Notes: generated by a model not told the origin, from the sequence alone. Positions 3,263 through 10,490 are shown, counted from the stretch's first letter. The stretch is 10,490 nucleotides of DNA from a virus (UHGV-1619017); one strand, 5' to 3'. Numbers and translations: made by a program.

Positions 3263-4921
3263 TCAGCGCATCAGAATTGGCTTACCGACGATTCGGCGAG
3301 CTGTACCGGTCGGACAAACAGACCAGGACACCTCCCACAGATCGATGTCCTTTTGGACAACCTGAACAACATATGGATCTTCACCCTGGGACTTGTCACG
3401 TGGAGTAACCAGCGCACCGGCTGCAACATAACGGTCAAGCAATTCAGTCATTGCTTTCATTAGCGTTTCTTTGGTAATGCCATCCGGTTCGTGCTTAATC
3501 GCCTGAGCTACTTCATAGAAATCTCTGGCGATGGCGTTCATCAAGGAAGACACATGCTGGAATCGCAGATAGTTGTTTTTGCTGTAAGTTGTTAAAGAGT
3601 CGTCAATGTAAACGGACCCGTCAGCAGCAACTGAAACTGGATTAATGCGCGCAAGAACGAACGCTTCACGATCAACTGCACCGATATTTGGAATTCGGGC
3701 AATGTTCTGTCGATCAATAATCGCGCGTGATATACCTGCCGGTGCGTAATGCCAACCACCAACATCCGGTACCAGCGCCACTCCTTTTGCTTTCGCTACG
3801 AATGCATCGCAACTGATGCCGTAAACAACATTCATACCGGTGAAGGTATCTCGGCAGGAGAATGGGAAGTAGTAGCGGCTTGGCTGGTGTGAGCCACCAA
3901 AACTATGGCTTTTAGCTTCTGAAATAGCATTTTCTGGTGTCTGGTTGCCCTTCAGGTCGTAGAACATGTCTACACGAACGTCTTCTGCCAGATTTTTGAG
4001 CGCGGCTAAGGCGGATGCGTCATAGCAGCCCAGTGACAGTAATGCGGTGTAATTAACCTCCGAGGCTTCGAGAACCTTTAATGCTTCCAGATAGTCTTCG
4101 GTGTCAATGGTGGACAAATCGCCATCAGTGCCGCCTTCAAAAGCCACATCCTCAAACATGAGTTGAGCAGCAGATGCTTCCGCATTATCTGCCAGGACGG
4201 CACCAATGCGAGTGGACTGGCTTTCAAGCAGTGTCGGAATCCATGCTGGTTGGCCCATGTCGTTAGTGCCTTCTGGATTGAAGGACACCTGGTGGCTTTC
4301 CAGCACCTCAACAGACCCATCGGTTTGTTTTTCTTTCAGCGTCAGCGTAAAGAGTTCACTTTCTTCATCATCGCGAGTTAGTGATAACGTGCGATTTTGA
4401 GATGCATCACCATCTTTGATGAAGAATAATGCCTTCCCTTCGTCTTTAATCTGGGGAGTTTCTTTTGGTGTGAAAGTTACTGATTGTGTCGTTGCAGTTG
4501 AAGCAACACCCACGCTCAATGTGTCACCTGGATTTACTGTGGTTTCAGCAGGTTCCACGGTAAGTGTTTTGTTGGCCTTTGCCGCTTTTGCTCTGCTCGC
4601 GACGGAAACAGAAATTCCCGGCACCTTCATGTCTTTAGCGCAAACACGAACGACATAACCAGAGCCACCTTTTACGGCACGCTCTACGTGGCGGTATGGT
4701 TCAAATGCCGATCCCAGGCGAGGGTGAATAGGTGAACCTAATACGCTTTGATAAGTCGTATCGTCAACTTTCAGCACTTTACCCGGTGCGCCACGACGCG
4801 ATATTACAAGCCCAGCAAAGACAGATGCGCCACCGCTGGTATTGGTGAGGGTAGCGTCAGCATTTACCGCCATTACAGCAACGCCAGCTGCCTGCCCTAC
4901 CGAAAAACTAATCTTATTCAT
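3263..4921 (-). CDS. Phage tail sheath protein (contractile tail), with an internal Ig-like insertion (552 aa)
   Basis: ATG at 4921..4919, stop TGA at 3265..3263. C-terminal half carries sheath-family landmarks as I recall them: YYFPF, GGWHYAPAGISRA (W-x-APA), ARINPVSVAADGSVYIDDSLT, YLRFQHVSSLMNAI, and a C-terminal beta segment VVQVVQKDIDLWEVSWSVCP. N-terminal AG...G...VLGSP pattern resembles sheath N-termini. Residues about 100-230 are Thr/Ser/Val-rich and Ig-like (LTVEPAETTVNPGDTLSVG). Confidence 0.65.
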   Translation of the reverse strand: MNKISFSVGQAAGVAVMAVNADATLTNTSGGASVFAGLVISRRGAPGKVLKVDDTTYQSVLGSPIHPRLGSAFEPYRHVERAVKGGSGYVVRVCAKDMKVPGISVSVASRAKAAKANKTLTVEPAETTVNPGDTLSVGVASTATTQSVTFTPKETPQIKDEGKALFFIKDGDASQNRTLSLTRDDEESELFTLTLKEKQTDGSVEVLESHQVSFNPEGTNDMGQPAWIPTLLESQSTRIGAVLADNAEASAAQLMFEDVAFEGGTDGDLSTIDTEDYLEALKVLEASEVNYTALLSLGCYDASALAALKNLAEDVRVDMFYDLKGNQTPENAISEAKSHSFGGSHQPSRYYFPFSCRDTFTGMNVVYGISCDAFVAKAKGVALVPDVGGWHYAPAGISRAIIDRQNIARIPNIGAVDREAFVLARINPVSVAADGSVYIDDSLTTYSKNNYLRFQHVSSLMNAIARDFYEVAQAIKHEPDGITKETLMKAMTELLDRYVAAGALVTPRDKSQGEDPYVVQVVQKDIDLWEVSWSVCPTGTARRIVGKPILMR

Positions 4922-4989: not shown

Positions 4990-5268
4990 TCAGGATTCGC
5001 CTACCGTGAAGTTGTCGCCTACGGTTACTTCTTTCGTAGTCGGTTCAACACTGACGGCGCTTACGCTTTTAGGTGCCTCCCTAACAGTGACCGTGCACTG
5101 TGCGGTTTTATTGCCGTCATTAGTTTTGATTGTCAGCACTGCCTGCCCTGCCTTAAGAGCGGTACATGTAGTGCCATCAACCCGGACAATTTCAGGGTGA
5201 TCGGACTCAACAGTGAAAGATTTGTCTGTTGCGTCAGATGGCGTGATAGTTACTTGAATGTTTGCCAT
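4990..5268 (-). CDS. Small Ig-like (Big_2-type) domain protein, possibly a virion decoration or accessory protein (92 aa)
   Basis: ATG at 5268..5266 with AGGAGA 5 nt upstream. Sequence FTVESDHPEIVRVDGTTCTALKAGQAVLTIKTNDGNKTAQCTVTV matches the bacterial Ig-like group 2 pattern (..VATVD..G.VTALKAG.A.ITA...DG.K.A.C.VTV). Ends inside what looks like the start of a second Ig repeat (SVSAVSVEPTTKEVTVGDNFTVGES). Confidence 0.6.
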   Translation of the reverse strand: MANIQVTITPSDATDKSFTVESDHPEIVRVDGTTCTALKAGQAVLTIKTNDGNKTAQCTVTVREAPKSVSAVSVEPTTKEVTVGDNFTVGES

Positions 5269-5414: not shown

Positions 5415-7112
5415 TCACTTTTTTTCGTTAACCTTGCCTGTCAGCATGTCGATAGCACCTTCTTTGGCACGAGTCAGACGCAGGCGGGCGAAATAATTCT
5501 CACCGTTGCGCGGGTGGACTTCGTTGATAGCACTACCCCAGAGAGTGGTGCGGTTAACGAGAGATGGATTGGTTTCGTGCACATACGGGATTGCTGGGAC
5601 CGCATCACCAGCGATCAGCCCGGCTTTACCGATGCCTTCACCGCGACCATAGAAATAAATGTCATCCAGACCTAAGTCATATCCCTGAGCCTTGAATTGC
5701 TCACACACAGGCTGCGGCACTTCGTAAATACGAATCGTGCCAAACAGGGTGCCGATGTACTGCACATACGGTGACTGAACGTAGCCCGGCGCGATTTGGA
5801 AGTGCTGTGGAGGCAGAGAACGCAGGAAGTTAGCTGCGTCACCACCTGCGAAGCCACCGCGAATACCTGTGGTCAGGGTGCGGTTTGCCATTTCCTGAGA
5901 CAGGGCGTTTACTGCGTGGCGCAGGAGGCCGACCCAGGACTCATAGTTTTGAGCTTCAGGCAGAGCCACATCAAATTCACGACCATAAACGGTATGGAAT
6001 ACCAGGGTGCGCAGACGCATGATGTCGGTTTCATGGGAGATCCAGTTCCGCATTGCGGAGAACTGAAGTGCCGCCAATTCAAGGCCGTGTTCACGGCTTA
6101 AATCGGAAGCGGACATTACGGTGTGTTCGGAAGCAATTACGTACTGAGACGGTCGAACTTCATACTTACGCATAGCCTGGTTGATTACCGGAATCAGGCT
6201 TGGATTGCGCTCGATGTTAATTTCGACCTGAACCGCAATTTCAGTCCCTTCTGCTGGCGCTTGAGTGAAGGTAATGTCGATGACACCAGTGTCATAAGCG
6301 ACTTTTGCGGTAGCTGAGAATGCATTGCCTTTGCAGTCTTTATCATTGAAATAAAGGTTGCCATCGCCGTCGTCAACCTTGGACGGTTTGCGGTTGATAA
6401 GCAGCTTGTTATAACCAGCACGCAGCGGGCAGGACTGCCCCTCAAAATTTTGGATGTCGAACTGGAAAGTTTTGGTGCTGCCGTCCCCTTTCGTGGAAAG
6501 GGTATACAGGCGCTTCATTTGAGAATAAACACCAGCGGATTGCATATTCAGTTCGTCACCTTGCTCGAAGGTGCCGAATTTTGTGCCTGCTACGTTGACC
6601 AGTTCATAAATATTTGACTCATCACGATCACAAGGAACAAAAGTACAGGCATCACTGGTAGCAGCACCCAGAGAGGCAGGCAGAATTAGTGCAGCATATT
6701 GAGCAACTTTCATTACGCCGTCAGAGCTACGCATTGATTGCGCGACAGACTCAAACATTGCCTTGCCAGTGCCTACGTGTGTATCGCTGGCACATTCAGT
6801 CATCAGGCGTTCAAGTGCCATGTGTGCGTTTGCCAGGATATCGCTTGCCGGGTAGTGACCATGCTGGCGCTTGTACTCATGCAGAGACATAGCCCACCCA
6901 CCAGCGATCTGACGTGCAACCTCTGGATTTACGCCTTCAAACATAGCCTCCTTCTGGATAGCTTTATCCAGGTTCTCCATCATCGCTGCCTGATCAGCAA
7001 TCATATTGCCCGCAGCATCGGTGGTCGGATCGACGGTCATAGCCATGACGCTTGCCGCCCGATTCATAATCTCGCGCTCGCGATCACGAGCTGGCTGAAT
7101 GTTTTTATTCAC
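5415..7112 (-). CDS. Putative major capsid (head) protein precursor, tentative (565 aa)
   Basis: Long ORF immediately upstream of the Ig-like and sheath genes in the same operon. Start at 7112 is GTG (the track shows M) with AGGG about 8 nt upstream. Size and position next to the sheath gene are consistent with a P1-type gene 23-like arrangement, but that is from memory. The Met/Ala-rich helical N-terminal 100-150 aa could be a cleaved propeptide. No motif-level proof of capsid fold. Confidence 0.4.
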   Translation of the reverse strand: MNKNIQPARDREREIMNRAASVMAMTVDPTTDAAGNMIADQAAMMENLDKAIQKEAMFEGVNPEVARQIAGGWAMSLHEYKRQHGHYPASDILANAHMALERLMTECASDTHVGTGKAMFESVAQSMRSSDGVMKVAQYAALILPASLGAATSDACTFVPCDRDESNIYELVNVAGTKFGTFEQGDELNMQSAGVYSQMKRLYTLSTKGDGSTKTFQFDIQNFEGQSCPLRAGYNKLLINRKPSKVDDGDGNLYFNDKDCKGNAFSATAKVAYDTGVIDITFTQAPAEGTEIAVQVEINIERNPSLIPVINQAMRKYEVRPSQYVIASEHTVMSASDLSREHGLELAALQFSAMRNWISHETDIMRLRTLVFHTVYGREFDVALPEAQNYESWVGLLRHAVNALSQEMANRTLTTGIRGGFAGGDAANFLRSLPPQHFQIAPGYVQSPYVQYIGTLFGTIRIYEVPQPVCEQFKAQGYDLGLDDIYFYGRGEGIGKAGLIAGDAVPAIPYVHETNPSLVNRTTLWGSAINEVHPRNGENYFARLRLTRAKEGAIDMLTGKVNEKK

Positions 7113-7270
7113 GGTTAAGCCCTAAATTCGGGCGCGGCGTGAAGGTTCTTTTGACGAGCTAACAATACCAACTTTGTTATTTAGTCAATAGCATTAGTAA
7201 AATAAAATCTATTAACACTTATATTGTTATGTGCTTTAATTTTAGTTTTCTAACACAAATTATTAGAGTT
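7113..7270. promoter_or_regulatory. AT-rich divergent intergenic region between the capsid candidate (minus) and the ribbon-helix-helix gene (plus); putative promoters and operators
   Basis: About 160 bp, markedly AT-rich from 7160. Repeated motif ATTGTTA/TAACAAT: TAACAATA at 7160-7167 (inverted), TTGTTAT at 7175-7181, TATTGTTAT at 7222-7230. Minus-strand TTGACT -35-like hexamer (reverse complement of 7183-7188) without a clean -10. Promoter positions not resolved. Confidence 0.35.
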
Positions 7271-7663
7271 ATGGCGTATCGGATCTTTGTTTCGTATAAA
7301 AATGGCGCTAAAAGCCACTCCCTGAACACAACGAGCCGCTTTCTTGTTGAGGCGCAACTGGCATCAATTCTTGCTGAAAGTGAGATACTCTCCCTCGCTG
7401 AACGAATCGTCATCCAGTTTTCTGGTAGAGATATTCTTAATGTCCCCGCCCTCACCCCGTCCTCCGAAGTCATGGAATCAATTAAATGGCCTGTATGTGG
7501 ATGCCCGGCGAGAGTTGAAGAGCCGGTAACCGCTACGCTCTATATGCCGAAAGCAGTAAGAGACTGGCTTGCTGTGATTGGCAACGGGAAAGTCAGTGCT
7601 GGACTGCGAAAGTTAATTGAAATGGCAGATATTCCAGAGTTAAAAAACGCATGGCGACAATGA
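7271..7663 (+). CDS. Putative DNA-binding protein with C-terminal ribbon-helix-helix-like domain (130 aa)
   Basis: ATG at 7271 chosen over the in-frame ATG at 7229, which lies in the AT-rich promoter region and gives an implausible N-terminus. C-terminus TATLYMPKAVRDWLAVIGNGKVSAGLRKLIEMA fits a strand, helix, G-x-x-S turn, helix pattern like Arc/MetJ/CopG. Weak SD. The competing minus-strand ORF 7219..7473 runs into the AT-rich intergenic region and is judged spurious. Confidence 0.4.
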   Translation: MAYRIFVSYKNGAKSHSLNTTSRFLVEAQLASILAESEILSLAERIVIQFSGRDILNVPALTPSSEVMESIKWPVCGCPARVEEPVTATLYMPKAVRDWLAVIGNGKVSAGLRKLIEMADIPELKNAWRQ

Positions 7664-7680
7664 GTAAACAGGGGGGCAAA

Positions 7681-8139
7681 ATGAGTCACGCGAATCCATC
7701 AAAAACACAATATCGCTTAATGCTGGCGATCGCGTCAGCTATACCAACCAGCCTGAATCCCCCTGCTGGCTATCCCGCTGTTGTTGATGATTGTTTTCAG
7801 TATTACGGTGAAGACATTCTGGGACAGTCGAAAGCACTAAAACAGTTGTGCAAAGCCGGGATTCTTCACTGCATAGGCGATCCGGATGATTTTGTTGTCA
7901 TGCTGGCAGATCGTGACTCTTTTCTGCTGTCCTGGAAAGCCGGGGCGCGCGAAGCGCGTTTGGGGAATGGCATTGGCTACATAGACTATAGCGATTGCCC
8001 GCTGGCATTTGCTGGTGGATATATGCATTGGCATGAGCGAAATAGAGGCCGTCAGCGTCAGTATCGCTTGAGTGACTTTAACGTCTGTCACGGTTTCGAA
8101 GAAGCTGACAGCCAGGACATCTGGCTTCAGGAGCCTTGA
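7681..8139 (+). CDS. Hypothetical Cys/His-rich protein, likely co-transcribed with the upstream ribbon-helix-helix gene (152 aa from ATG 7681)
   Basis: Strong SD AGGGGGG 6 nt upstream of ATG 7681. In-frame ATGs at 7651 and 7660 would overlap the stop of the upstream gene (7661-7663), so the two genes are tightly coupled either way. Contains several Cys and His (C..YY, HC, DCP, HWH, CH) that could bind metal. No family recognised. Confidence 0.4.
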   Translation: MSHANPSKTQYRLMLAIASAIPTSLNPPAGYPAVVDDCFQYYGEDILGQSKALKQLCKAGILHCIGDPDDFVVMLADRDSFLLSWKAGAREARLGNGIGYIDYSDCPLAFAGGYMHWHERNRGRQRQYRLSDFNVCHGFEEADSQDIWLQEP

Positions 8140-8459
8140 TCCCCCTTCCCTTCCCAAATCTCCCTGTTTCTTTGGTTATTCAGTGCGTTTCGTTGGTTGC
8201 ATTCGTCGATCGTGCTGAATAACTGTTCAGCGTATGTCGGATACTTGTTTAACAGCACTGGCGTGTCCTCTGGCACTAAACAAGGGGAGTAATCAATCAG
8301 ATTTGCCTGCGGCTTGCTGGTGGCTTCTACGGTAATTTTCACTGGCACGCTGGTTGATGGCTTTTGCCCGTTCCCGCTGCATCCTGATAACGTCATCAGG
8401 CACACGCACATCGTTAATCCCAGCACGGCGCAACGCATTTTCAAGGCGAGTGATTTCAT
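8127..8459 (-). CDS. o-spanin (Rz1-like outer-membrane lipoprotein spanin subunit), start overlapping the i-spanin gene (110 aa precursor)
   Basis: Strong SD GGGAGGAAA upstream of ATG 8459. Signal peptide ending in lipobox LSGC (MKSLALKMRCAVLGLTMCVCLMTLSGC); mature part is Pro-rich and short with an extra Cys (SPCLVPEDTPV). Overlaps the i-spanin ORF by 167 nt out of frame (8293-8459), the classic overlapped spanin arrangement. Confidence 0.65.
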   Translation of the reverse strand: MKSLALKMRCAVLGLTMCVCLMTLSGCSGNGQKPSTSVPVKITVEATSKPQANLIDYSPCLVPEDTPVLLNKYPTYAEQLFSTIDECNQRNALNNQRNREIWEGKGDQGS

Positions 8460-8793
8460 TCTGGCTTTCCTCCCGCTGTTTGATCAGTCTGTTATTAAGT
8501 TCGGTTGTTTTGCGCTGGTAGTCTTTTTCCAGTTCTTTGATTCTTTCGTTTTCGACCTGCATGGCAGAGCGTGCGCCTTCACTTAACTGCAATGCGGTAG
8601 AAAGCGTGTTGTTCTCGCTTTCCAGTTGTGATTTTGAGTCTTCAAGCGACCGGACATACCTGATGTGTTCGATAACTGCCGTCGTTGTTCGGTAAATTCC
8701 AGAAATGGCTAAAAGCGCAATTACAATCAAAATTATCTTTTTCAAAACCACCCTCTTTAGTTTTTTTGGTGTTAAAAGTGTACCGTTTTGCAT
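8293..8793 (-). CDS. i-spanin (Rz-like inner-membrane spanin subunit) (166 aa)
   Basis: Short basic N-terminus (KKLKRVVLKK), a single hydrophobic transmembrane segment (IILIVIALLAISGIY), then a long charged, coiled-coil-like periplasmic region (SLEDSKSQLESENNTLSTALQ...ERIKELEKDYQRKTTELNNRLIKQREESQNEITRLENALRR). Same architecture as lambda Rz. Its 3' end contains the start of the lipoprotein gene in another frame. Confidence 0.65.
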   Translation of the reverse strand: MQNGTLLTPKKLKRVVLKKIILIVIALLAISGIYRTTTAVIEHIRYVRSLEDSKSQLESENNTLSTALQLSEGARSAMQVENERIKELEKDYQRKTTELNNRLIKQREESQNEITRLENALRRAGINDVRVPDDVIRMQRERAKAINQRASENYRRSHQQAAGKSD

Positions 8794-8818
8794 CCTTTTG
8801 TGTGCTTAAATGGTGTTG

Positions 8819-9622
8819 TTATGGTTCCTTTTTGGTGTTCTTTTGGAGCGCATCGATAACGCCTTGTGGCATGATTAAACTGATTGCCGGACTCATTACT
8901 GCATCGTCCAGTAGAGAACCTGTTAACGTGATTGCGACTGCGTTCTCTAAACCTTTGGTTGCCTGAGTTGTTGCCGTTTTAATGCGGTCAGCAAGGGCTA
9001 TGACACTCTCACTTGCTGAATTAATTCCGAAGAGTGAAACTTCAGCTACTGTTACCGCTTCCCGTAAAGCATCAATTTCATCCTGAGTAATGTCCGGAGC
9101 CTGTGCTGCCCCTCCACCAGCCTGTCCACCATCACTATCACCACCAGCACTCCCGGCAGCTTCAATTTTTGCGTTTATGGCGTTCATGGCGGTATTCAGA
9201 TCGTCAAGTTTCAGCGCCGCCAATGCGTCCGTTAATGATTGCGGGATGGAAACATTCCCCATCCCCTCTACCAGGGCGAACGCTGGCGCGGGGATCAGTT
9301 CATTACCTTTTGCGTGGCACTCCCAGCCAATCTTCATCTGTAACAACTCTGATGGCGTGGTGTATGGGGAAAGAGAGTCAGCCAGTGATGAAGAAGACTT
9401 GCTGGCCTCATTGAGCTGTTCGGAAAATCCAAGCAATTGAGTCGTCCAGGCCGACACTGAATCAGGATAGGTTTTATCAGGGTGAACCATTTCCTGTATT
9501 GCGCTCGCGAGTGACGAGGCTTTTGAAGAAGCCGCCAGGCTTATGGTTATTGATTCCGGTGTGGATGCACCAGCACCAGACAGAATTTGGAAGGCTTTAA
9601 CTTCACCTATTGAATCAAGCAT
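8819..9622 (-). CDS. Hypothetical protein, two-part with Ser/Ala-rich N-terminal half and Gly-rich linker (267 aa)
   Basis: ATG at 9622..9620 overlaps the TAA stop of the upstream PAAR-like gene (TAATG, 1-nt overlap), indicating translational coupling. Low-complexity linker AAGSAGGDSDGGQAGGGAAQAP. No transmembrane segment, no catalytic motif I can recognise. Antisense plus-strand ORFs here (9090..9440, 9103..9414) are artefacts. Confidence 0.45.
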   Translation of the reverse strand: MLDSIGEVKAFQILSGAGASTPESITISLAASSKASSLASAIQEMVHPDKTYPDSVSAWTTQLLGFSEQLNEASKSSSSLADSLSPYTTPSELLQMKIGWECHAKGNELIPAPAFALVEGMGNVSIPQSLTDALAALKLDDLNTAMNAINAKIEAAGSAGGDSDGGQAGGGAAQAPDITQDEIDALREAVTVAEVSLFGINSASESVIALADRIKTATTQATKGLENAVAITLTGSLLDDAVMSPAISLIMPQGVIDALQKNTKKEP

Positions 9623-9906
9623 TATGCGACCTGAAAAATATCCTCGCCGTTAGCGATAACAGAACCACAAGAAAGCGGATCGCCTACGCAGACTACTCCC
9701 TTTCCACCTATTGAATACCATGCCCGTGTCGATACAGCCGATCCGGGATGTGCACTGTTGCCATCTGTATGGCTGGGAAACATGGCACCATCCACAACAA
9801 CTGGCTTACCGTTGACGGTGAACCAGGGAACGGTTTCAGCTACCAGTCGCGGCGGAAATCCTCCGTGACCGGAACAAAGTGTGTCGCTGGTGGCTATTGC
9901 GCTCAT
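9622..9906 (-). CDS. PAAR-like small protein, candidate spike-tip protein of a contractile injection apparatus (94 aa)
   Basis: ATG at 9906..9904 with AGGAGA 6 nt upstream. Three repeated beta-turn segments with the spacing of PAAR repeats but degenerate motifs: SDTLCSGHGGFPP, VNGKPVVVDGAMFPSH, GKGVVCVGDPLSCGSVIANG. Compare canonical GD..C..HGG.I, INGKPAAR.GD, VGD...HGG.I. Memory-based, no HMM run. Confidence 0.4.
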   Translation of the reverse strand: MSAIATSDTLCSGHGGFPPRLVAETVPWFTVNGKPVVVDGAMFPSHTDGNSAHPGSAVSTRAWYSIGGKGVVCVGDPLSCGSVIANGEDIFQVA

Positions 9907-9953
9907 TCTTCATCTCCTGGTTATTCGCCTATTGTCATCACTTTGTTATTTCG

Positions 9954-10172
9954 TCACTCAAAGAGAGAGTGAAATCACGGAACATTTAAAATTCCCGTTT
10001 TGTTCTCAAATTGTTCTCACTTCTATCCAAGTGCCCGGCAGGCGATTAAAGATATTCTCAAAACAACCTCAATTATGACTCTTATTTATCTCTAATTATG
10101 TGGATTTTCGATGTCTTCTCTTTTAAAATCATGATTTGATTCTCAAATGTGTCTCAGAAGTGGAGCAAGAAG
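9954..10172 (+). promoter_or_regulatory. parC: parC-like centromere and promoter region upstream of parM, with TTCTCA-core direct repeats
   Basis: TTGTTCTCA at 10000-10008 and again at 10011-10019 (11-bp register), a degenerate third copy in phase (TTCTATCCA from 10022), and further copies TATTCTCAAAA at 10053-10063 and GATTCTCAAA at 10138-10147 just upstream of the parM ribosome-binding site. Imperfect inverted repeat TCACTC-N7-GAGTGA at 9954-9972. Possible sigma70-like -35 TGGATT (10101-10106), 17 bp, -10 TAAAAT (10124-10129). Position upstream of parM matches the parC-parM-parR layout. Region also holds the divergent promoter for the minus-strand operon starting at 9906. Confidence 0.5.
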
Positions 10173-10490
10173 ATGCGCATTTTTATCGACGATGGTTCAA
10201 CAAATATCAAAATGCTGTGGGAACACGACGGGGAAACTCGCACGCACATCAGCCCTAACAGCTTTAAGCGCGGATGGTCAGCAACATTTGGTGCTGGCAA
10301 GCCATTTAACTATGTCATTGACGACGAAAAGTATTCGTATGATTTGATCTCGCCAGATGTTCTGCCGACGAATAACGTGGAATGGCAATACAGCCCGCTT
10401 AACGTCCTGGCTGTTCACCACGCCCTGCTGACAAGTGGCATTGAGCCGCAGGAAGTAGAAATTGTGGTTACGCTGCCACTGGCGGAGTTT
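10173..10490 (+). CDS. parM: ParM/StbA actin-like plasmid segregation ATPase (type II partition), N-terminal 106 codons; gene continues beyond the window
   Basis: ATG at 10173 with GGAG about 8 nt upstream. Translation [106 protein letters not shown] closely parallels plasmid R1 ParM as I recall it ([37 protein letters not shown]). Absent from the ORF track because no stop occurs before the window end; the track ORF 10147..10347 is an out-of-frame artefact. Confidence 0.9.

What the first reader, a model, noticed from the sequence alone, without database searches (positions are those of the whole stretch)
8127..8793. Overlapped spanin pair detached from any holin or endolysin and co-transcribed with the PAAR-like operon
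The i-spanin (transmembrane segment plus coiled coil) and o-spanin (lipobox LSGC, Pro-rich mature part) are clear. The o-spanin start with a strong SD lies 167 nt inside the i-spanin gene in another frame. No holin-like (small, 1-3 transmembrane segments) or endolysin-like ORF is adjacent; the upstream genes are the PAAR-like protein and the 267-aa unknown. Lysis genes are therefore split across the genome, or the 267-aa protein has an unrecognised lysis role.
Basis: partly seen in the sequence, partly recalled or inferred. Interest (0 to 1): 0.5.

Follow-up and report, generated by a model that had tools for sequence, protein, structure and literature searches.

The report
Spanin gene pair of D6-like phage-plasmid
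This is a genuine pair of overlapping phage genes for the proteins that break the bacterial outer membrane at the end of infection; sitting far from the other lysis genes is the arrangement already known from phage P1, so the finding is correct but ordinary.

Summary
The window comes from a D6-like phage-plasmid of E. coli, a distant relative of P1. A type-II membrane protein with a long helical periplasmic domain (i-spanin) and a lipoprotein with lipobox LSGC (o-spanin) are encoded on the minus strand. They overlap by 167 nt in different frames, and GGGAGG lies 9 nt before the o-spanin ATG.

Two corrections:
- The conserved i-spanin start is TTG 8745 (150 aa), not ATG 8793.
- The o-spanin is only modestly proline-enriched.

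Both frames are intact in nine relatives and show dual-coding constraint. Both proteins hit PHROG Rz-like spanin profiles. The o-spanin is 31% identical to P1/P7 Mlp.

The gene order upfC–upfB–i-spanin–o-spanin is the same in P1, P7, JK004 and D6. The P1 pair (ppfA/mlp) is already catalogued as an overlapped spanin in an operon unlinked to holin and endolysin.

In D6, the holin/antiholin pair (lydA/lydB), a CHAP-domain hydrolase and the spanins lie at three separate loci. Each is preceded by the same late-promoter-like motif.

By homology to P1 UpfB, the 267-aa protein is a virion "tripod" protein on the tail spike tip, not a lysis protein.

Verdict: a new member of a known kind, of low interest. 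Its main value is correcting annotation.

The parts
9931..9951 (-). Late-promoter-like motif AAATAACA-N7-GACAAT, upstream of the PAAR/upfC-like gene. It is the inferred promoter of the whole upfC-upfB-spanin operon.
   Evidence: The pattern AAAT[CA]ACA-N7-NANNNT occurs 11 times in D6, against 0.63 in shuffles. Every copy lies upstream of a structural or lysis operon in the right orientation. In the window it occurs only here and before the capsid gene. It is also present before the PAAR gene of the distant relative L015.
9622..9906 (-). PAAR-like / UpfC homologue (94 aa), the tail spike tip protein and first gene of the operon.
   Evidence: Pfam PAAR_motif 6.4e-6 and phrog_281 2.6e-29. D6 orf57 is annotated as similar to P1 upfC. 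P1 UpfC is the monomeric spike tip, like T4 gp5.4.
8819..9622 (-). UpfB homologue (267 aa), by homology a virion 'tripod' protein attached to the spike tip. It is not a lysis protein.
   Evidence: phrog_1559 3.2e-98 over its full length; the same family matches P7 Upf63.6/UpfB at 2.3e-132. tblastn to P7 gives 26% identity. P1 UpfB is placed in the baseplate by cryo-EM. There is no Pfam hit. The AF2 model was unusable.
8752..8757 (-). Shine-Dalgarno AAGAGG, 6 nt before the conserved i-spanin start.
   Evidence: Conserved in all nine aligned relatives.
8293..8745 (-). i-spanin (150 aa from the conserved TTG). It has an N-terminal transmembrane segment (about 8692-8736), then helix, linker and helix in the periplasm, and no cysteine. 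In this window the open frame extends to ATG 8793, but that start is not conserved.
   Evidence: phrog_214 7e-15 and phrog_89 1e-6, both 'Rz-like spanin'.
8469..8474 (-). Shine-Dalgarno GGGAGG for the o-spanin, inside the i-spanin gene.
   Evidence: Lies 9 nt upstream of ATG 8459. GGGAGG in most relatives, GAGAGG in the D6-type copies.
8127..8459 (-). o-spanin (110 aa precursor). The lipobox LSGC is encoded at 8379-8390. The mature protein is 84 aa, with Ser at +2 and two further conserved cysteines.
   Evidence: phrog_456 2.8e-5 and phrog_30284 7e-4. 31% identity to P7 Mlp, E 9e-9.
8293..8459 (-). 167-nt dual-coding overlap. It encodes the i-spanin C terminus in one frame, and the o-spanin signal peptide plus the start of the mature protein in the other.
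   Evidence: Diversity is about half that of the flanks, with no third-position bias in either frame. The P7 ppfA/mlp overlap is also 167 nt.

Best explanation
The locus is the two-component spanin pair of a D6-like phage-plasmid. It is the counterpart of P1 ppfA (i-spanin) and mlp (o-spanin).

Mechanism, by analogy with lambda Rz/Rz1 (inferred, not shown here):
- The i-spanin is anchored in the inner membrane by its N-terminal helix and extends a helical, coiled-coil-prone domain into the periplasm.
- The o-spanin is lipidated at Cys27 and sorted to the outer membrane.
- The two bind through their C-terminal regions and span the periplasm.
- Once the holin (LydA type) has triggered and the CHAP-type hydrolase has removed the peptidoglycan meshwork, the complex fuses or disrupts the outer membrane. 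This completes lysis.

The two genes are the last genes of a late operon. Its first two genes encode virion proteins of the tail spike tip, UpfC (PAAR-like) and UpfB ('tripod').

The lysis genes of this phage lineage sit at three unlinked loci, as in P1. Timing is probably coordinated because each locus carries the same late-promoter-like motif, not because the genes are adjacent.
For: Shown directly:
- Gene anatomy, overlap and SD.
- Conserved start.
- Both frames intact in nine relatives, with a dual-coding substitution pattern.
- AF2 helix-linker-helix model, pLDDT 87, and heptad periodicity.

Homology:
- PHROG 'Rz-like spanin' profiles match both proteins.
- P7/P1 PpfA and Mlp hit the same profiles reciprocally.
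- The o-spanin is 31% identical to Mlp, E 9e-9, with the same LSGCSG lipobox context.

Synteny:
- The order upfC-upfB-i-spanin-o-spanin is found in P7, JK004, D6 and the distant contig L015.

Literature:
- The P1 pair is listed as an overlapped spanin in SpaninDB.
- It is described as lying in an operon unlinked to lyz and lydAB (PMC9025707).
- Zero cysteines in the i-spanin with two in the o-spanin is the commonest spanin class (PMC6139136).

Dispersed lysis loci:
- D6. NZ_CP032875.

Shared late motif:
- It precedes the CHAP hydrolase gene, lydA and upfC in D6, and the PAAR and capsid genes in the window.

Co-transcription:
- No further copy of the late motif lies inside the operon. No sigma-70-like site was found on the minus strand, and only weak terminator-like hairpins, fewer than chance.
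Against: - No spanin of the P1/D6 type has been tested experimentally. PMC9025707 says so for P1.
- CRISPRi knock-down of P1 ppfA and mlp did not reduce plating (PMC10695390), so necessity is unproven.
- Pfam and NCBIfam spanin models are not reached: O_Spanin_T7 E 0.012 and LysC E 0.27, both below cut-off.
- The i-spanin is not significantly similar to PpfA by BLASTP (E 1.2).
- The promoter assignment rests on a motif I derived here, not on transcript data.
- The P7 region upstream of upfC does not carry a clear copy of the annotated P1 late-promoter box.
Confidence: 0.82

Rival explanations
1. The 267-aa protein upstream is an unrecognised muralytic or holin-like lysis protein. On this reading the operon is a cryptic lysis cassette.
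For: It lies immediately upstream of the spanins, and no Pfam domain has been assigned to it.
Against: - It is the UpfB homologue: phrog_1559 matches at 3e-98 over the full length, and the same family matches P7 UpfB.
- Cryo-EM of P1 places UpfB as three trimers on the spike tip.
- The AF2 secondary structure is all helical, but at pLDDT 40 the model is too poor to compare folds.
- D6-like genomes already carry a CHAP hydrolase and LydA/LydB elsewhere.
- P1 upfB is non-essential for plating.
Confidence: 0.03
2. The pair consists of envelope proteins that are not, or no longer, used for lysis. They could instead act in superinfection exclusion, or help the spike-tip proteins of the same operon during entry or assembly.
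For: - The linkage to spike-tip genes is conserved across P1, P7, JK004, D6 and L015 despite strong sequence divergence.
- P1 ppfA and mlp are dispensable for plating by CRISPRi.
- Function has never been verified.
Against: - Every sequence-level criterion for a spanin is met.
- The profile matches are to Rz-like families.
- P1 virion proteomics (PMC9024508) makes no mention of PpfA or Mlp (0 occurrences in the main text), and the cryo-EM baseplate and virion protein lists do not include them.
- PMC9025707 states that spanins are not essential for lysis in shaken laboratory cultures, so non-essentiality for plating is weak evidence.
- From general knowledge, dispersed spanin genes also occur in T4 (pseT.3/pseT.2; their function is shown in PMC6139136).
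Confidence: 0.1
3. The downstream ORF (o-spanin) is a chance open frame, and only the i-spanin-like protein is made. This is how PGAP treats it in the PLSDB gene table.
For: - The PLSDB/PGAP gene tables list no gene there.
- GenBank D6 annotates only a 73-aa fragment that lacks the signal peptide.
Against: - The ATG, the SD, the lipobox and both mature cysteines are conserved in all nine relatives and in a lineage with 48% i-spanin identity.
- The o-only part shows third-position bias (29/50), and the overlap shows dual constraint.
- It is 31% identical to P1 Mlp.
- Missed o-spanin genes are a documented gene-caller artefact (PMC6139136).
Confidence: 0.02

Closest known systems
Phage P1/P7 PpfA (gp064, i-spanin) and Mlp (gp063, o-spanin), listed as the overlapped 'P1' family in SpaninDB (Summer 2007; Kongari 2018)
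   Same: - Same gene order, upfC-upfB-i-spanin-o-spanin.
- Same overlapped architecture, with an identical 167-nt overlap.
- Same lipobox context, LSGCSG.
- The o-spanins are 31% identical.
- Both i-spanins hit phrog_214 and phrog_89.
- Both pairs are unlinked to the holin and endolysin genes.
   Different: - The i-spanin sequences have diverged beyond BLASTP detection (E 1.2).
- P1 has upfA and the plasmid replicon downstream, whereas D6-like elements have two convergent unknown genes and then the capsid gene.
- The partner endolysin is a CHAP-domain hydrolase in D6, not the SAR-lysozyme Lyz of P1.
- The D6-type late motif upstream is not evident in P7.
Lambda Rz/Rz1, the prototype two-component spanin
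   Same: - A type-II inner-membrane protein with two periplasmic helices, paired with an outer-membrane lipoprotein.
- The o-spanin gene starts inside the i-spanin gene in the +1 frame.
- The presumed mechanism is the same.
   Different: - Lambda Rz1 is fully embedded in Rz, lies directly after S and R in the lysis cassette, and its mature form is short (40 aa, general knowledge).
- Lambda uses cysteines in both subunits.
- Here the architecture is overlapped, the mature o-spanin is 84 aa with 8% Pro, the i-spanin has no cysteine, and the pair lies in a virion-gene operon.
T4 PseT.3/PseT.2 spanins
   Same: - Zero cysteines in the i-spanin and two periplasmic cysteines in the o-spanin.
- An o-spanin with a structured C-terminal part.
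- Spanin genes not adjacent to holin t or endolysin e (general knowledge).
   Different: There is no detectable sequence similarity, and the genomic context is different.
P2 LysB/LysC family (for example Fels-2)
   Same: - Overlapped architecture.
- The i-spanin C-terminal motif of the type (V/L/I)P-xD-x-IR-x-xRE is visible in Fels-2 LysB, P1 PpfA and this protein.
- A weak Pfam LysC hit (E 0.27).
   Different: - P2 lysB/lysC lie in the lysis cassette (general knowledge).
- Similarity is limited to a short motif and falls below the family cut-offs.

Membership tests
Two-component spanin (Rz/Rz1 type) | The i-spanin has a single N-terminal transmembrane domain with type-II (N-in, C-out) topology. 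| tested here: met
   One hydrophobic segment, KKIILIVIALLAISGIY, with KD19 maximum 2.6 and Lys-Lys on the N-terminal side. It is helical in the AF2 model.
Two-component spanin (Rz/Rz1 type) | The i-spanin periplasmic domain is highly charged and made of two helices separated by a linker, with coiled-coil propensity. | tested here: met
   Helix 2-107, break 108-116, helix 117-146, pLDDT 87. 36% charged residues. The heptad signal in helix 1 is reached by 30 of 2000 shuffles; helix 2 is not significant.
Two-component spanin (Rz/Rz1 type) | The o-spanin has a signal-peptidase-II signal with a lipobox, and no Asp at +2, which gives outer-membrane sorting. | tested here: met
   MKSLALKMR-CAVLGLTMCVCLMT-LSGC-S. 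The lipobox is at residues 24-27 and residue +2 is Ser. It is conserved in all relatives. Actual processing cannot be tested here.
Two-component spanin (Rz/Rz1 type) | The o-spanin gene is embedded in, overlapping with, or immediately following the i-spanin gene. | tested here: met
   Overlapped class: 167 nt are shared, in the +1 frame, and the o-spanin extends 166 nt beyond the i-spanin stop.
Two-component spanin (Rz/Rz1 type) | At least one periplasmic cysteine in the pair, allowing intermolecular disulfides. | tested here: met
   The i-spanin has none. The mature o-spanin has two, at C34 and C61, both invariant. This is the commonest class in SpaninDB.
Two-component spanin (Rz/Rz1 type) | Significant match to a curated spanin profile. 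| tested here: inconclusive
   PHROG Rz-like spanin families are matched: phrog_214 7e-15, phrog_89 1e-6, phrog_456 2.8e-5 and phrog_30284 7e-4. Pfam and NCBIfam models fall below cut-off: O_Spanin_T7 0.012 and LysC 0.27.
Two-component spanin (Rz/Rz1 type) | Location in a lysis cassette next to holin and endolysin. This is typical but not defining. | tested here: not met
   The neighbours are spike-tip genes and unknown genes. In D6 and NZ_CP032875, holin and hydrolase lie tens of kb away. P1 shows the same exception.
Two-component spanin (Rz/Rz1 type) | Required for outer-membrane disruption, shown by complementing a lambda Rz/Rz1 defect. | not testable with these tools
   This needs an experiment. 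The P1 homologues have not been verified either.
P1 PpfA/Mlp spanin family | Sequence homology of the o-spanin to Mlp. | tested here: met
   31% identity over 98 aa, E 9e-9. Reciprocal hits to phrog_30284 and phrog_456.
P1 PpfA/Mlp spanin family | Sequence homology of the i-spanin to PpfA. | tested here: inconclusive
   BLASTP gives E 1.2. Both proteins match phrog_214 and phrog_89, with the rank order swapped, and they share the C-terminal motif VP-DD-IR..RE.
P1 PpfA/Mlp spanin family | Position downstream of upfC-upfB. | tested here: met
   Same order in P7, JK004, D6, L015 and the window.

The most novel reading that the evidence does not exclude
The linkage of the spanin pair to the spike-tip genes (PAAR-like UpfC plus the UpfB tripod) persists across P1, P7, JK004, D6 and a D6-like contig whose i-spanin is only 48% identical. 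This could reflect a functional connection rather than history. For example, the two envelope-spanning proteins might also act at entry or in baseplate-tip assembly. Alternatively, co-expression from one late transcript might set the spanin dose relative to virion completion.
Probability: 0.05. Interest if true: 0.6.

Novelty: new member of a known kind. Interest (0 to 1): 0.15.

Why it matters
The main value is for annotation.

- GenBank D6 labels the two genes 'hypothetical' and truncates the o-spanin to 73 aa, which removes its signal peptide.
- The gene tables of the seven D6-like plasmid records I opened (of 122 PLSDB hits) list no o-spanin at all, and in that hit list no feature under the match carries a spanin or lysis name.
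- Recognising the pair completes the lysis gene set of a phage-plasmid lineage widespread in E. coli, Salmonella and Shigella.

There is also a modest regulatory point. In D6, the hydrolase, holin and spanin loci each carry the same late-promoter-like motif. That explains how dispersed lysis genes can still be expressed together.

None of this changes the understanding of spanins. The P1 precedent for the same arrangement has been in the literature since 2007.

Tried and rejected
- **tblastn of both spanins against the phage collection.** Only D6 was found. The link to P1 had to be made through UpfB, synteny and profiles.
- **AF2 model of the 267-aa UpfB-like protein from a single sequence.** It came out at pLDDT 40.5, so no fold search was run. 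A muralytic fold could therefore not be tested structurally. Rejection of that idea rests on homology to P1 UpfB and the published cryo-EM.
- **P1 late-promoter box (AAGTNACTT-N4-TANNNT).** It gives no more hits in the window than chance.
- **P1 C1 operator consensus.** It gives no hit.
- **My first motif guess, ATAACAAAG.** It was too noisy. It was replaced by AAAT[CA]ACA-N7-NANNNT after lining up the D6 upstream regions.
- **The generic sigma-70 and terminator scan.** It found nothing informative on the minus strand.
- **Two key papers are not held in the library**: the D6 genome paper (Gilcrease and Casjens 2018) and the P1 genome paper (Lobocka 2004). I therefore cannot say whether the D6 late motif or the D6 spanins were already described there.
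- **A wide homologue search with the i-spanin.** It returned only 19 proteins, nearly all D6-like. One cluster is named 'Lysis protein' by UniRef.

Full report
**What the window is.** Bases 7100-10490 are 90.8% identical over their full length to Escherichia phage D6. D6 is a P1-related myovirus that is maintained as a plasmid. The same stretch is 91-98% identical to many of 122 matching plasmid records from E. coli, Salmonella and Shigella. The D6 annotation and PHROG searches identify the window's genes as follows:
- tail tube and baseplate genes;
- sheath (3263-4921);
- major capsid protein (5415-7112);
- two convergent unknown genes on the plus strand;
- the minus-strand block 9906-8127, which holds the finding;
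- the start of a parM/stbA partition gene.

**The observation.** They share 167 nt and are one frame apart.
- The upstream product has one strongly hydrophobic N-terminal segment preceded by lysines, no cysteine, and a periplasmic part with 36% charged residues.
- A single-sequence AlphaFold2 model (pLDDT 87) gives a continuous helix at 2-107, a break at AGINDVRVP, and a second helix at 117-146.
- Helix 1 has a heptad pattern that only 30 of 2000 shuffles reach.
- The downstream product has a lipoprotein signal ending in L-S-G-C, with Ser at +2. Its mature part is 84 residues with two more cysteines.
- GGGAGG lies 9 nt before its ATG.

Two details need correcting:
- **The i-spanin start.** ATG 8793 is peculiar to this sequence. 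D6 and most relatives read ATG-TAA there, and others have no ATG. All nine aligned sequences share a TTG/GTG at 8745, with AAGAGG 6 nt upstream. The protein is therefore most likely 150 aa, as the D6 authors annotated it.
- **Proline content.** It is 8% of the mature o-spanin and is confined to its first half. That is modest next to lambda Rz1.

**Are both genes real?** Yes.
- Across eight D6-like relatives there are no indels. Both frames stay open, apart from one stop two codons early in one o-spanin.
- A contig whose i-spanin is only 48% identical has the same pair, with a 161-nt overlap, the same LSGC lipobox and the same two cysteines.
- Where only one frame codes, variable sites concentrate at third positions (42/74 and 29/50).
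- In the overlap, diversity halves (pi 0.057 against 0.099 and 0.114) and the codon-position bias disappears in both frames. This is what dual coding predicts.

**What the pair is.**
- Both proteins match PHROG families annotated as Rz-like spanins: the i-spanin matches phrog_214 at 7e-15 and phrog_89 at 1e-6, and the o-spanin matches phrog_456 at 2.8e-5 and phrog_30284 at 7e-4.
- Pfam and NCBIfam spanin models are not reached.
- The decisive comparison is with P1/P7. The UpfB-like protein led to the P7 locus. There the order is upf63.8 (UpfC), upf63.6 (UpfB), upf62.7 (PpfA) and upf62.4 (Mlp), and the last two overlap by exactly 167 nt.
- P7 Mlp carries the same LSGCSG lipobox context. It is 31% identical to the window's o-spanin, with E 9e-9.
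- PpfA is not significantly similar by BLASTP. It does hit the same two PHROG families as the window's i-spanin.
- Cronobacter phage JK004 has the same four-gene order. Its annotation keeps only a truncated 135-nt fragment of the o-spanin.
- P1 gp064/gp063 are listed in SpaninDB as an overlapped i-spanin/o-spanin pair.
[quoted passage not shown] That paper swaps the i- and o- labels; Mlp is the lipoprotein.

**Where the other lysis genes are.** The window holds none. In D6 the layout is:
- holin lydA and antiholin lydB (Pfam LydB 1e-24) at 30.7-31.5 kb, at the head of the dar operon;
- a lone CHAP-domain hydrolase at 19.3 kb;
- the spanins at 55.1-55.7 kb.

The complete plasmid NZ_CP032875 is 97.5% identical to the window here and has the same three-locus layout. 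It is a lineage trait shared with P1.

**The 267-aa protein.** It is the UpfB homologue (phrog_1559, 3e-98 over the full length). The 94-aa PAAR-like protein is the UpfC homologue.
- A 2026 cryo-EM study of P1 places monomeric UpfC on the gp5 spike as the counterpart of T4 gp5.4. It places UpfB as three trimers, a 'tripod', anchored to that tip (PMC12810830).
- Earlier work predicted the UpfC role and found that a upfC deletion plaques normally (PMC9024508).
- My own structure model of this protein was too poor to use.

**Transcription (inferred).** I lined up the regions upstream of D6 operons and found the motif AAAT[CA]ACA-N7-NANNNT.
- It occurs 11 times in D6, against 0.63 in shuffles.
- Every copy is intergenic and correctly oriented, before darB, the CHAP hydrolase gene, prt, ddrB, lydA, R, pmgB, capsid gene 23, upfC, gene 7 and mat.
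- In the window it occurs exactly twice: before the capsid gene (7182-7162) and before the PAAR gene (9951-9931).
- It also precedes the PAAR gene of the distant relative L015.
- The geometry (box, spacer, -10-like hexamer) and the set of operons suggest the D6 equivalent of P1 Lpa-dependent late promoters.
- Within the operon the genes abut or nearly abut. No further copy of the motif lies inside it, and no sigma-70-like site or convincing terminator was found.
- The spanins are therefore most likely made from the same late transcript as the spike-tip proteins. The three lysis loci are probably co-timed by a shared promoter type.

**Comparison and novelty.** The pair meets every sequence-level criterion for an overlapped two-component spanin. 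Its cysteine pattern (0 + 2) is the commonest in SpaninDB.
- What it lacks is the typical lysis-cassette position, and P1 already lacks that too.
- It is a new, unannotated member of a known kind, not a new arrangement.
- Database records call these genes hypothetical, truncate the o-spanin (D6 orf54, 73 aa) or omit it. This is exactly the gene-caller bias described by Kongari et al..

**Caveats.**
- No P1- or D6-type spanin has been tested.
- CRISPRi knock-down of P1 ppfA and mlp did not affect plating.
- The promoter assignment is computational.
- The D6 and P1 genome papers could not be read here.

Noticed in passing
window 9931-9951 (-) and 7162-7182 (-); D6 genome (L001, L004, L005): The motif AAAT[CA]ACA-N7-NANNNT looks like the D6-lineage late promoter. 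D6 has 11 copies against 0.63 expected, and all lie upstream of structural or lysis operons. I could not check whether this has been published.
   Followed up: partly
window 8451-8650: There is a mosaic patch inside the i-spanin gene. About 200 nt encoding periplasmic helix 1 are essentially identical to an E. fergusonii plasmid (L012) but only 82-94% identical to D6. Both flanks are 100% D6-like. The patch ends at the o-spanin start, which suggests recombination within the gene.
   Followed up: partly
window 8127-8139: The 3' end of the o-spanin overlaps the 3' end of the convergent plus-strand gene 7681-8139 (D6 orf53, unknown function) by 13 nt. A 6-bp hairpin (AGCCAG-N5-CTGGCT) follows the o-spanin stop and might act as a weak bidirectional terminator.
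   Followed up: no
window 9985-10156: Repeated TTCTCAAA-type units lie between the PAAR gene and the divergent parM/stbA gene. They include a 35-nt direct repeat at 71% identity. They are probably the parC-like centromere of the ParMR partition system.
   Followed up: no
window 7229-8139 (+): Two conserved genes of unknown function (D6 orf52 and orf53; phrog_7830 and phrog_8101) occupy the position that upfA and the repA/parAB replicon hold in P1. The plasmid module has therefore been relocated in the D6 lineage.
   Followed up: no
window 4990-5268 (-): A 92-aa Ig-like (Big_2) protein gene lies between the capsid and sheath genes. It could encode a decoration or tail-surface protein. PGAP and the Pfam hit on the L015 homologue call it Ig-like.
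   Followed up: no
L002 (P7) about 6683-6699: A second sequence resembling the P1 C1 operator (aaaattagagcaaatca) lies just upstream of P7 upfC and is not annotated in the record. If it is functional, the P1 upfC-spanin operon might be repressor-controlled rather than, or as well as, late. The window has no such site.
   Followed up: no
D6 record MF356679 orf54; JK004 gene_24; PGAP plasmid records: The o-spanin genes are truncated or missing in the relatives' annotations I inspected. D6 has 73 aa and JK004 has 135 nt. The gene tables of the seven PLSDB plasmid records I opened show no o-spanin gene.
   Followed up: yes
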